Shown: positions 3,101 to 25,227 of the stretch, piece after piece
How the letters are laid out: each line of letters opens with the position of its first letter
How positions within the stretch are numbered: the stretch's first letter is position 1
Assembly (NCBI RefSeq): GCF_021028975.2
Contig: NC_059426.1
Location: 116,932,001 to 116,996,000 of the forward strand
DNA: 64,000 nt
DNA from: Sphaerodactylus townsendi
Lineage: Eukaryota
Direction of reading: 5' to 3'
The notes under the pieces: model-generated
Told to the model about the DNA's origin: nothing
What the model saw: the letters and a program-made list of their open reading frames with translations, nothing else
Databases searched by the model: none
Program-made: the position numbers and the translations under genes

Positions 3101-6100
3101 TGGGAAATGGGAGAGGCTATGAGAGCTGCCAGGCAAAAGAAAGAGGAAAGGAGAGGAGAGGGGAAAATGAGATGCCCCCTGCAAGTTTTTGCAGGCCTTC
3201 TGCTTGTTCAGTACTATTATCCTGAAAAATGTCTCTTTTACCTGAACTGGTGAGTACACTGAGAGGACTGTTGGAAGAATTGAGTGCAGTGGTACCACTG
3301 GGCGTATTCTGAGCAGCAGTTGCTGCAGCTGCAAGTGCTGCTAGGTTCTGTAACTGCATCGCATTCAGTCCTGTAAGACATAATACAAATTGGACTGAAG
3401 TCTTAATACAAATTGGACTGAAATGTGAAATGGCTATTACGGAAGATTTCATATGTCTTCACAATATACCGGCAGAGGCAGCTAGGACCCCGGGGGAACC
3501 CTGGATTACAATTCCTGGTAGGAGGTTGAGACGAAGGCGGGATAGAAGGAGGAAGAGAGGGCGCCGGGCTGGTGTTTTTACTAAGCTGGGAAGGTGTAGT
3601 TTCAAGTCTGCACTTCCAAGCATTTTTCTTACTAATGCACGATCTCTTAGCAACAAAATGGATGAATTAAGGCTACAAATTGTGAAGAGCAGATTTGGCA
3701 AGAACAGCTGTGTTTTATTAATTACAGAAACCTGGCTTCACTCACACATTCCCGATTCAGCAGTTGAACTATCTGGTTTCACTTCTTTCCGGCAGGACAG
3801 AAGTAGTAAAGATTCTGGGAAGCATAAAGGAGGGGGTTTAAATCTCTATGTGAACAAAAGCTGGTGCACTAATGCAAGCATCACAGGGGTCACTGCTCAA
3901 GGGATTTGGAAAGTATGACTATTAGATGCAGACCCATATATCTGCCACGGGAGTTTAGTGTGGTTATCATCATTGCAGTATACATTCCACCTGATGCTAA
4001 TGCTGCCATAGCTTTGAGCTCTCTGTATAACATTGTTGAAAACCAGCAGAAAAAGCATCCTGATGCTGTGCTCATTATAGGAGGAGACTTTAATCATACT
4101 AATTTAAAACAGTGCTCCCTAAACTCTACCAGCATGTCAGGTGCCCCACTAGAGGAGCCAATACATTGGATAAAGTGTATACCATCATCAAGGATGCCTT
4201 ACAAGGTGATACAGTTACCACACTTGGAGTCAGTCAGACCATTTATCACTGTTTCTGGCACCAGCATATATTCCACTTGGGAGGTGAGGGTGTTGCCTGT
4301 AATAAAGACTGTAAAATCCTGGCCTGATGATGCCTCTAAACTACTTCAAGATTGTTTTTGAGACAACAAATTGGGATGTTTTCTACCACACCCAGATCTG
4401 GAGGAGTATACCACTGCTGTTCTGAGTTATATCACCCACTGCACAGACACTCTTACTGTGTATAAGCGCATCCGATTTACTCCAACCATAAAACCCTGGA
4501 TGACAAAGGGAGGTTCAGCGACTTTTGCCTGACAGGAATATTGCTTTCAGAGCTGGTGATGAGGCAACGTAGAGTGCGGCGAGAGCCAGTCTCAAGAGAG
4601 GCATTACGACAAGCCAAGATGAGTTATAAGAGAAAAATTGAAGATTATTTTAATAATAACAACATGAGGCAGGTGTGGCAGGGAATTCAACAAATTACCA
4701 ACCATAAACCAAACAATGACATTTCTGTGGATGGGGATTCTTCTCTGGCGGAGGAGCTAAATCACTTTGCCCGCTTTGAAACAGGTCTATCAGAAGGAGA
4801 TGACACACAGCCACCAGGTGATTGCAGCTCACACCTCACTGTGGAGGAACATGAGGTGAGGCAAGTTTTGAGGGCTGTGAATCCAAGGAAGGCTGCTGGA
4901 CCGGATGGTATTCCCGGTCGGGTGTTAAAGGAATGCGCTAACCAACTGGCTGGTGTTTTTACTGGGATCTTTAATCGATCTTTATCCCAGTCCACCATTC
5001 CATCTTGTTTGAAAGCTTCCACCATTGTTCCACTACCAAAGAGATTTCCTGCTGACAATCTTCAGGATTATAGACCAGTGGCACTCACCCCATCATCATG
5101 AAGTGTTTTGAAAAACTGGTCAATAGGCATAATAGTTCTCGCCTTTCAGATACATTTGATAAACATCAGTTAGCATATCGGACAAACAGATCTACGGAGG
5201 GCGCCATTGCCATTAGCCTCCACACAGCTTTGGCAGCATCTGGAACAGCAGGGGAATTATGTGCGAATGCTCTTTCTTGGGACTTTAGTTCCGCATTTAA
5301 TACAATCTCGCCACAAAGACTGGTGACAAAACTTGTGGATCTTGGACTCTCACATTCAATCTGTTTGTGGATTAGGGACTTCTTGTCTGGGCGTTCCCAG
5401 AGGGTTAGACTGGGAAATCGGGTTTCCTCAGTTCTTACTCTAAATATGGGAACGCCACAGGGCTGTGTGTTGAGCCCTTTACTGTTCACCGCTTTATACA
5501 TATGATTGTACTCCTGTCTATCATAGTAACACCATTATCAAATTTGCTGATGACACAACGGTGGTGGGGCTCATCTCTGGAGGGGATGAGTCTGCCTATC
5601 GGAATGAAGTGGACCGACTGCTCTCATGGTGCAGGGAAAATAACCTGGTTCTTAACACTAACAAGACAAAGGAGCTCATAGTGGACTATAGAAGGAATAG
5701 CTCAGAAATTCAGCCACTTGACTATAAATGGAGATCAAGTGGAAGCGGGTGGCTAGTTTTAAATTCCTGGGCGTTATGATTAAAGAGGATTTGACCTGGG
5801 GAGTACAGACTACCGCGGTGGTTAAGAGAAAGCCCAGCAAAGACTGTACTTTCTGAGACTTTTAAGGAAGCAACAACTAGATGGAAAACTTCTGGTGTGC
5901 TATAGAGAGTGTCCTAACCTACTGCATCTGTGTATGGTTCTCCAGTTGCACAGTGGCGAATAGGAAGGCGCTCCAAAGGGTGATCAATACTGCACAAAGG
6001 ATTATCGGCTGCCCTCTCCCCTCCTTGGAAGAAATCTATAATGCCCGAAGTCTAAATAAAGCCCAAAATATTCTAAGGGACCCGTCTCATCCAGCACACT

Positions 6101-22903: not shown

Positions 22904-23685
22904 AATAAAATGTGAGTTTTCAGAACTTTCAGGGATGCCAGAAAATACAGAAAAAAAGATGAAAAATACCAGTTTAAATAAAAACAGATAAGTAAACTCA
23001 TGCATATTGATGAATCTAAGTAATCTTATTTTTCTGAACTCCAATTTTATTACATTAGCATGACAGAGCCGTTCTGCAACTCTGGTCAATAAATCTATCC
23101 CAGTGAACTTCTCCACATTTACTATTCTCTTTTCCACCAAAAGATCTAAACAGGATTCTAACTCCATCCACAACTGCTTCCTGGATCTTATTTTTAGTTC
23201 AGTGCTCCACAGGGTTCCTAGTGCCTGCCTTGTTCTGTTCTTCGTTCAAAAGGGGGGGAAAAGCACGGAGGGGGAGGAAGGCAGCATGATTATGCATGTC
23301 GGGCTGGCCTCTCTCCCTTGTTTTCCCAGTCCAGTCAGGCTGGGGAAGCAAGGAGAGGGAGGCAGCATGATCTTGTGTCTTGGGCTGAGTTAACTCAGCC
23401 CGACACCCCCCCTTGCTTCCCCAACTCAGCTGGCTCAGAGGGACAGCAACAGTCTCCCTATTTCTCCACCCACCTTCCCCCTGGCCAAAACACCAATTTT
23501 GCTCTATTCCACCAGGCCTGGCATCAGCCTCCCCATTCCCCCTCCCCCACAAGCACCAAGCTGCCCCCCCAAAATCACTGCTTGCTTGCCTGCCTGGTCA
23601 TAGTCCTTCAGGGTTAGTTCTACTGTGGAAGCCCGCACTTCCACTGCCCCACTACTGGACCACACTTACATTTTTCTGTGGAAAA

Positions 23686-24499
23686 CGGTTCATTGGTTAC
23701 TCGCTGTGAAGGAGCCTTCTCCTGGAAGGTAAGGAGGACATCTTGATGGGTATTTTCCAACCCTGCCTCAGGGAAGCAGGAACTTGAAATTGTCACTTCC
23801 AGTGAAGGTTTGGACGCCCATCTTGTCTTCAGTAGACGACTGTCAAAGCAGTACTAGCACACACATGGTAACATTAACAGGAAGTAACATAATGGAACAA
23901 GTAACAAGAACTAAACAGTAACTCAGACCTCGAGTTCAGATCAACATAGGCTCAAGCGTGAAAAACTTTATCGGAGATCAACTGGACCCAGTGAAGGCCA
24001 AGATGTCCTACTTACCTTCCAGGAGAAGGCCCCTTCATGGTGAGTAACCAATGGACTGTTCTCCTGGAGGCAGAGGACATCTTGATGGGACCTCCCAGAA
24101 CAGTGTTCCAATAGGGAGGGTTATGGTCAATCTCCGACCAATGTGTTCCAGCCCTCTTTTGCCGAAGTAGGAAAAAATACAGAAGAGCCTAAACCAGGGG
24201 TAGGGAACCTGCGGCTCTCCAGATGTTCAGGAACTACAATTCCCATCAGCCCCTACCAGCATGGCCAATTGGCCATGCTGACAGAGGCTGATGGGAATGG
24301 TAGTTCCTGAACATCTGGAGAGCCGCAGGTTCCCTACCCCTGGCCTAAACGAAGCGCTGTTCTCCCTGCTGAGGCAGGAAAAATACTGAAGACAAGATGG
24401 GCGTCCAAGCCTTCACAGGAAGTGACAAGTTTCAAGTTCCTGCCTCCCTGAGAAAGGATTGGAAAACACCCATCAAGATGTCCTCTGCCTCCAGGAGAA
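23686..24499 (-). mobile_element. Non-autonomous miniature DIRS-type element (ITRs plus internal complementary region)
   Basis: ITRs 23717-23834 and 24384-24499; internal segment 24001-24089 is the reverse complement of both element ends joined; no coding remnant. Confidence 0.85.
24195..24342. mobile_element. Palindromic hAT MITE (148 bp), TSD GCCTAAAC, nested in the mini-DIRS
   Basis: Nearly identical to 7274-7421; exact 8-bp TSD. Confidence 0.92.
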
Positions 24500-25087
24500 G
24501 TGTATAGTCAGTGCTCAGGTATCCTGTGCTGCACAAAGAGATACAATTTTATTCCATCAAAACACAAACCATAAGAGGCAGCCTAATTGCAAACATCTTC
24601 AGTAGATCAATAATTTTTGGTATCAAGCTCTTGAACTATCCCATACTAACCTCAGTATGAACTCATGCCTATCCAACACACTGATCCCTATTTAATACTC
24701 ATTCACTTGTCTTCCTACTAGCCTTTTCTTCCATTTTCATTCTCTATTTTGAGTAGCTTTCTTCCACGCCAATTCAAACCTTAGCTTGAAATATTATTTT
24801 AAATGTTTCTGTCCTGCCTTTCCAACTGCCCAAGGTGAAATACAGTTTCCTATACAGTCGCAGCTGCCAAAGTAATATTAATTTGTCAGAGCACCAAATA
24901 ATTAGCGGGGTGGCCACCAGAACGATGTGTTTACAGTATAAAGAACAAGAAAAACAGGTTGATTTCATGAATAGGGGGAGTACAGGAAAGGGGTTTTGCC
25001 CCCTCCCACAATTTCTTCCACCTCTCAAAGTTCCTACTAATGGTCCTGAGAGCTCCTCCGGAACAATAAGCAATACAGCAGAGGAAA

Positions 25088-25227
25088 GGCCCCTTCCGCA
25101 CATGCAGAATAGTGCACTTTCAATCCACTTTGCAGCTGGATTTTACTGAGTGGAATAGAAAAATCCACTTTCACACAATTGTGAAAGTGGATTGAAAGTG
25201 CATTATTCTGCATGTGCGCAAGGAGCC
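25088..25227. mobile_element. Hairpin MITE, probably PIF/Harbinger-type
   Basis: ~44-bp TIR GGCCCCTTCCGCACATGCAGAATAGTGCACTTTCAATCCACTTT with its inverted copy; AAA on both flanks. Confidence 0.7.

What the first reader, a model, noticed from the sequence alone, without database searches (positions are those of the whole stretch)
23686..24499. Miniature non-coding DIRS element retaining the full ITR/ICR architecture
Seen: 23717-23834 and 24384-24499 are ~117-bp inverted repeats. 24001-24058 is the reverse complement of the left terminus (23686-23743), fused directly to 24059-24089, the reverse complement of the right terminus, so the internal segment spells the end-to-end circle junction. Established: DIRS1-type retrotransposons use this ITR + terminal extension + ICR layout to regenerate their ends and form the circle integrated by tyrosine recombinase. 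Without the nested MITE and one TSD copy the element is ~660 bp and has no ORF. Inference: a compact non-autonomous DIRS family mobilised in trans, analogous to TRIMs or MITEs. I do not know of a description in lizards but cannot confirm novelty.
Basis: partly seen in the sequence, partly recalled or inferred. Interest (0 to 1): 0.72.

Follow-up and report, generated by a model that had tools for sequence, protein, structure and literature searches.

The report
Single-copy internally deleted DIRS retrotransposon
This is a single, gene-less leftover of a known kind of jumping gene that kept both ends but lost most of its middle, likely while being copied; it is not a family of miniature elements, though other places in the genome hold odd 109-base chains made only of such ends.

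Summary
Observation confirmed; family interpretation not supported. 23686-24499 has genuine DIRS1-type ends and an 89-bp ICR, but lies on the minus strand: the 'left extension' is the 3' extension. Autonomous 5.3-6.3-kb relatives (Gag, RT/RH, YR) with the same ends exist genome-wide. The element (658 bp without its MITE) keeps about 180 bp of 5' end and the last 13 YR codons. Its deletion junction occurs once in the genome. Its only close relative (L002, 718 bp, 90-94%) has a different, mutually exclusive interior. Of 78 ICR-anchored copies with both ends, 23 are shortened (834-5030 bp), and none of 31 short copies shares another's structure. The deletion likely arose during copying, less likely after insertion. 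Side lead: six unlinked loci hold 108-115-bp 'ends-only' DIRS units as 1-6-mers, with the linker flipped inside arrays, possible fossils of circle intermediates. Look-ups of earlier scan notes showed no such finding on other DNA.

The parts
23683..23685 (-). Target trinucleotide TTT just outside the 3' end
   Evidence: Sequence. The 3' flank begins TTC or TTT in 71 of 81 and 19 of 23 relatives
23686..23716 (-). 3' (right) extension, rE, 31 bp
   Evidence: Outside the ITR pair and complementary to the ICR; orientation from full-length relatives
23717..23834 (-). 3' ITR, 118 bp
   Evidence: 89.9% to the 5' ITR
23835..24000 (-). Subfamily-specific spacer between ICR and 3' ITR, 166 bp
   Evidence: 2 hits in the genome: this locus and L002 at 90%
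24001..24058 (-). ICR half complementary to the 3' terminus (58 bp)
   Evidence: 52 of 58 matches
24059..24089 (-). ICR half complementary to the 5' terminus (31 bp); junction trinucleotide at 24059-24061
   Evidence: 31 of 31 matches
24090..24167 (-). Remnant of the tyrosine-recombinase 3' end (last ~13 codons, ~24127-24167, with a 1-base shift) and the bases down to the ICR
   Evidence: About 74-82% to the same stretch of longer copies; translation matches the YR C-terminus of L060, L061, L063
24166..24171 (-). Internal deletion junction (about 4.7-5.1 kb inferred lost)
   Evidence: Similarity to L002's 5' part ends and similarity to the YR end begins here; a 32-mer across it has 1 match in the genome at up to 3 mismatches
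24171..24383 (-). Start of the 5' leader (about 57 bp once the MITE and one duplication are set aside), shared with L002
24195..24342 (.). Nested 148-bp palindromic MITE with an 8-bp target duplication (24187-24194 and 24343-24350), hAT-like by duplication length (family label recalled)
   Evidence: Arms 95% complementary; 97-99% to a copy in L027/L077; empty site in L002
24384..24499 (-). 5' ITR, 116 bp, beginning TTC
   Evidence: 81-86% to the 5' ITR regions of five of six full-length copies mapped, 78-80% to L060 and L063

Best explanation
It is a single-copy, internally deleted DIRS1-type retrotransposon that kept both ends and the ICR and likely lost its middle by a template jump while a longer parent was being copied, before the tyrosine recombinase would have inserted it at a TTT site. 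Shown: architecture, orientation, autonomous relatives, single-copy junction, YR remnant, later MITE insertion. From established DIRS biology: the ICR restores both ends and forms the circle junction, and YR recombines its trinucleotide with a matching target. Inferred: the parent was a full-length or longer member of a small subfamily now surviving only as this copy and L002; the jump joined the 5' leader to the YR end at a 2-3-base overlap; the product was not copied again. That it is a one-off deletion derivative of either timing has about 0.8 probability; the copying-stage timing is the less certain part.
For: Junction 32-mer: 1 match. Spacer: 2 matches. L002 holds about 120 bp more leader and lacks about 65 bp of YR end, so neither copy derives from the other by one deletion. 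23 of 78 both-end ICR-anchored copies are 834-5030 bp (one is 5'-truncated) against 55 of 5.3 kb or more. No pair among 31 short elements is collinear over 80%. Two other young deletion junctions are also single-copy. Several of the 23 junction views show overlaps of a few bases, others filler bases; none shows GT-AG. For the timing: 3 of 18 deleted copies have no mismatch at all between ICR, ends and ITRs; several carry two junctions with an internal island; 11 of 22 right breakpoints lie within 500 bp of the ICR against 19% expected (p about 0.001 on alignment ends; 8 of them viewed base by base); ends-only multimers with flipped linkers point to deletion on free intermediates.
Against: Deleted copies are older on ICR-to-end divergence (median 0.034 against 0.011, p = 0.005; 6 of 38 young against 12 of 27 older copies deleted), as expected of deletion after insertion. 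The only sibling is also under 1 kb, while only 1 of 78 census copies is, which hints at a shortened shared parent. No close full-length parent was found (best about 75%), so the overlap at the junction cannot be fixed. The breakpoint-clustering count partly rests on alignment ends in copies about 70% alike.
Confidence: 0.5

Rival explanations
1. A full-length DIRS inserted here and later lost its interior in the chromosome (double-strand-break repair with short overlaps). The MITE came before or after.
For: Deleted copies are older on average. End-complete copies that lack the ICR exist (L045, L046, L053, L218, L225, L228), although the ICR is essential for retrotransposition in Dictyostelium (PMC7192593, passages). 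This copy is old: 7% divergence between its self-templated repeats.
Against: Undecayed copies are already deleted; double junctions and clustering of breakpoints near the ICR. Both surviving subfamily members would have needed independent near-total deletions that spared every cis part. L002's junction form is already present in organisms B and D.
Confidence: 0.28
2. One reading: a short non-autonomous parent of at least about 780 bp was mobilised in trans by autonomous DIRS, and this copy and L002 are its further-deleted, last surviving offspring.
For: Both members are under 820 bp with all cis parts, at unlinked loci on C2 and C5. Their 8.4% divergence (48 of 569) is close to the sum of their own decay (about 3.5% + 2.5%), so their sources were near-identical. 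Other deleted copies also have deleted nearest neighbours (L146/L102 98%, L161/L106 94-95%). DIRS-1 RT can act in trans (PMC7192593, section 21).
Against: No shared junction, no surviving parent, copy number 1. In PMC7192593 the truncated construct did not complete a scored retrotransposition, and the authors call that assay uninformative on the point.
Confidence: 0.18
3. The junction is a splice: a spliced DIRS RNA was reverse-transcribed and inserted.
For: Some deleted relatives keep internal islands that look like exons, and right breakpoints recur near the ICR.
Against: None of the junctions viewed shows GT-AG ends; they show short overlaps or filler.
Confidence: 0.03

Closest known systems
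DIRS1-like YR retrotransposons of Anolis carolinensis (AcDIRS1, AcDIRS2; PMC3266345, passages including Table 3) and Xenopus (PMC9210276, passages)
   Same: 5' ITR - ICR - 3' ITR - rE layout. ITRs about 120 bp as in Xenopus. ICR halves 31 + 58 (AcDIRS 40-58 and 39-60). rE 31 (AcDIRS 26-28). Trinucleotide junction. Full-length relatives here are 5.3-6.3 kb (AcDIRS 5.9-6.0 kb).
   Different: Lacks Gag, RT/RH/MT and all but about 13 codons of YR. 658 bp, single copy.
Dictyostelium DIRS-1 (PMC7192593, passages and section 21)
   Same: ICR of 89 bp against 88 bp, split 31 + 58 against 33 + 55, complementary to both extremities.
   Different: Much shorter ITRs; no ORFs.
Non-autonomous YR retroelements: TOC1 (PMC9940879, one passage), SIRE (PMC6681497, passages), zebrafish 'DIRS-N1' (name only, PMC5400779, one passage)
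   Same: YR-retroelement ends without coding capacity.
   Different: TOC1 is described as non-autonomous with copy-number variation, and SIRE as an interspersed repeat of split-direct-repeat type whose mobility is left open. The structure of DIRS-N1 was not seen. This element is single-copy.
TRIMs and MITEs (recalled; TRIM, LARD and MITE categories seen in PMC8498967 passages)
   Same: Short, ends retained, no ORF.
   Different: Defined by many copies of one structure, which is not met here.

Membership tests
DIRS1-like YR retrotransposon (deleted copy) | Inverted terminal repeats | tested here: met
   89.9% over 119 columns
DIRS1-like YR retrotransposon (deleted copy) | ICR near the 3' end complementary to both extremities, with a 3' extension | tested here: met
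   52/58 and 31/31, abutting; rE 31 bp
DIRS1-like YR retrotransposon (deleted copy) | Gag, RT/RH and YR ORFs, in the element or in relatives with the same ends | tested here: met
   Absent from this copy except the YR tail. Present in L060 and L061: LAP2alpha E 4e-10 and 3e-9, RVT_1 E 5e-16 and 9e-17, Phage_integrase E 9e-5 and 5e-4, the last below the curated cut-off
DIRS1-like YR retrotransposon (deleted copy) | Insertion at a trinucleotide matching the circle junction, without ordinary TSD | tested here: met
   Element starts TTC and is followed by TTT; TTC/TTT in 71 of 81 and 19 of 23 relatives, no preference at the 5' flank. The empty site itself was not seen
Non-autonomous miniature family (TRIM/MITE-like) | All cis parts kept, no coding capacity | tested here: met
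Non-autonomous miniature family (TRIM/MITE-like) | Several unlinked copies share one internal structure and junction | tested here: not met
   1 match to the junction; sibling differs; 0 collinear pairs among 31 short copies
Non-autonomous miniature family (TRIM/MITE-like) | Autonomous partner with matching ends | tested here: met
   Full-length copies about 78-87% alike at the ends; none from the same subfamily
Non-autonomous miniature family (TRIM/MITE-like) | Transcription and mobilisation in trans | not testable with these tools
   Needs a helper/donor assay or circle capture
Existing Repbase or Dfam entry | Sequence match to a curated family | not testable with these tools

The most novel reading that the evidence does not exclude
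DIRS replication in this genome sheds end-complete by-products of every size, and the recombinase integrates them. The window element is a mid-sized one. The extreme is an ICR-less, 108-115-bp unit made only of the two ends, found at six unlinked loci as monomers, a dimer, a tetramer and a hexamer, with its linker flipped inside every multimer and TTT after four of the six. These would be genomic fossils of the circular, rolling-circle intermediate that inverse PCR failed to capture in Dictyostelium, and possibly a micro-family moved by YR without an ICR.
Probability: 0.35. Interest if true: 0.62.

Novelty: new member of a known kind. Interest (0 to 1): 0.3.

Why it matters
As it stands the element is ordinary: a deleted copy of a known retrotransposon superfamily. 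It does mark out a natural minimal cis set (about 180 bp of 5' end plus about 480 bp of 3' end) that could serve as a donor in a helper assay. The census behind it matters more. About three in ten end-complete copies are internally deleted, each differently. The ends-only multimers bear on an open point of the DIRS cycle: whether and how circles form and are integrated. PMC7192593 reports that the circle junction could not be amplified.

Tried and rejected
Family test: DNA searches with the 3' half, L002, the spacer and L002's interior and mismatch patterns gave no third close copy. DNA searches score only the best candidates; pattern counts are whole but miss copies with more than 3 changes in the motif. 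Splicing was rejected on junction sequence. A direct genome-wide count of ICR-to-5'-end distance was not obtained, and 94 of 194 matches were not listed, so contigs from C6 on are thinly sampled. Sequencing runs: no RNA holder listed. In organism B, contigs join both window flanks to the element's ends (records 1 and 7), but no contig of B, C, D or E covered 24136-24167; a hole proves nothing, so the state of the orthologous interior is open. Whether organism D has the empty site could not be read (records 18, 20, 23). One contig of organism E runs on through the YR end for over 255 letters, compatible with a longer relative but not tied to this subfamily. The flanks match no other fetched locus, so no paralogous empty site was found. 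Five hits are RT coding sequence and one is an ICR-circle junction, not micro-units. Literature searches found no description of miniature ITR/ICR DIRS families in squamates or of ends-only multimers; most subscription papers, Repbase Reports and supplements were not seen, and Repbase may well hold such entries.

Full report
Observation. The ITRs (23717-23834, 24384-24499) are 89.9% alike. 24001-24058 complements the 23686 end (52 of 58) and 24059-24089 the 24499 end (31 of 31), and the halves abut. A 148-bp palindromic MITE with an 8-bp duplication sits at 24195-24342. Without it the element is 658 bp with no useful frame.

Identity and orientation. A genome search with the first 509 bases gave 119 matches from 40 of 1371 candidates scored, almost all 68-85% alike. 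Of 20 ten-kb extensions, six gave full-length elements of 5.2-5.8 kb with both ends. L060 and L061 encode a LAP2alpha-type Gag, RT (with RNase H hits in L061) and a YR ending just before the ICR. The genes run towards the extension, so the window element lies on the minus strand and the extension is the 3' rE, as in DIRS-1 and the Anolis elements (PMC3266345, passages). The window copy keeps the last ~13 YR codons and about 180 bp of 5' end. Roughly 4.7-5.1 kb are inferred missing.

Is it a family? No, on every test run. The subfamily-specific spacer has two hits, by DNA search and by a 26-mer at 3 mismatches: this locus and L002 on C5 (718 bp; 94% in the 5' part, 90% in the 3' part). L002 has more leader and less YR end, so the two interiors exclude each other. 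A 32-mer across the window's junction matches once.

Census. An exact ICR-junction motif has 194 matches. I fetched 88 of the 100 listed (8 already held or the window itself, 4 extra units of one array) and 30 of 33 matches to a variant motif. Both ends lay within 7.5 kb in 66 of 88 and 12 of 30. Of these 78, 55 are 5.3 kb or longer and 23 are 834-5030 bp (one is 5'-truncated); only L169 is under 1 kb. None of 31 short elements (23 census, 8 found earlier) is collinear with another over 80%. Junctions of two more short copies are single-copy. Junction views show short overlaps or filler, not splice sites. The 3' flank begins TTC or TTT in 71 of 81 and 19 of 23 copies, matching the junction trinucleotide; the window copy is followed by TTT.

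Mechanism. Established (PMC7192593, passages and section 21; PMC3266345, passages): the ICR is needed to complete retrotransposition, is thought to restore both ends and form a circle, and YR is thought to integrate at a trinucleotide; RT can act in trans. Inferred here: the deletion formed during copying. In favour: 3 of 18 deleted copies show no decay at all, several have two junctions, and right breakpoints crowd near the ICR (11 of 22 within 500 bp against 19% expected; rough). Against: deleted copies are older on average (p = 0.005), and ICR-less end-complete copies exist, both of which fit deletion in place. I put these at 0.5 (during copying), 0.28 (after insertion) and 0.18 (short shared parent).

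Related species. Contigs of organism B join both flanks to the element's ends, so the insertion is shared. L002's junction form appears once each in organisms B and D at single-copy depth. The window's own junction was not covered in any of the four runs, which proves nothing.

Side finding. Following a tandem cluster led to units made only of DIRS ends: 26 bases of 5' end, a 22-29-base linker from the ITR, and the 58-base 3' end. One sister subfamily has them at six unlinked loci: C1 (6 units, 115 bp), C4 (4 units, 109 bp), C12 (2 units, 109 bp), and C3, C11 and C13 (monomers). Their 3' parts are 83-100% alike. The linker stands in both orientations within all three multimers, and TTT follows four of the six. 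Four more loci show similar units from other DIRS families, and one on C841 was not fetched. These come from 30 of 48 and 30 of 32 pattern matches fetched. Head-to-tail exact junctions with flipped linkers are most simply explained by collapse of the ITR stem on a free intermediate, rolling-circle or hairpin copying, and YR integration. Repeated insertion into the previous unit's end, or tandem duplication with later inversion, is not excluded. PMC7192593 could not amplify the circle junction by inverse PCR, so these arrays may be useful evidence.

Known and new. It works like, and is a deleted member of, DIRS1-like retrotransposons. It fails the defining test of a TRIM- or MITE-like family. 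Non-autonomous YR retroelements are named in print: TOC1 (PMC9940879, one passage), SIRE (PMC6681497, passages), DIRS-N1 (PMC5400779, name only). Six searches found no account of miniature ITR/ICR families in squamates or of ends-only multimers; Repbase, Dfam and supplements were not seen. PMC9210276 and PMC8498967 were read as passages only.

Verdict. Real structure, ordinary status: interest 0.3, most of it owed to the side lead.

Noticed in passing
L209 (G000:C1, about 10749700-10750450), L212:1224-1658, L265:1347-1551, L250, L267, L229: Ends-only DIRS units of 108-115 bp, without ICR, as 6-, 4-, 2- and 1-mers at six unlinked loci. The linker is flipped within each multimer, and four loci end exactly at the DIRS 3' end before TTT.
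   Followed up: partly
L246, L252, L264, L268 (each near 1500) and G000:C841:4148275-4148325: Similar ends-only units from other DIRS families with different linkers, so the product recurs across families.
   Followed up: partly
L002:1501-2218: 718-bp sibling with all cis parts and a different junction; its junction form is also present in organisms B and D.
   Followed up: yes
L045:1405-1665, L053:1501-2251, L046:491-1713, L218:1475-2298, L225 near 1440-1641, L228:1475-2095: Short copies of about 200-1220 bp with both DIRS termini but no ICR.
   Followed up: partly
L161 and L106: Two deleted copies 94-95% alike share nearly the same right breakpoint but have different left ones: a hot spot or a nested origin.
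   Followed up: partly
L059:7759-8003, L018:1470-1652, L064 near 5500-5970, L066 near 5960: A DIRS end next to another copy's end or ICR, including a head-to-tail junction in L059, as expected if DIRS insert into their own ends.
   Followed up: no
window 24195-24342; L077/L027, L107, L170, L068: The same palindromic MITE family is inserted in several DIRS copies and is very abundant in the laid runs.
   Followed up: no
window 25087-25200: Start of another very abundant repeat with an internal inverted repeat.
   Followed up: no
L089, L090, L094, L097, L099, L101 and others: Many full-length copies have little or no mismatch between ICR, ends and ITRs, so some DIRS subfamilies were active recently.
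   Followed up: partly
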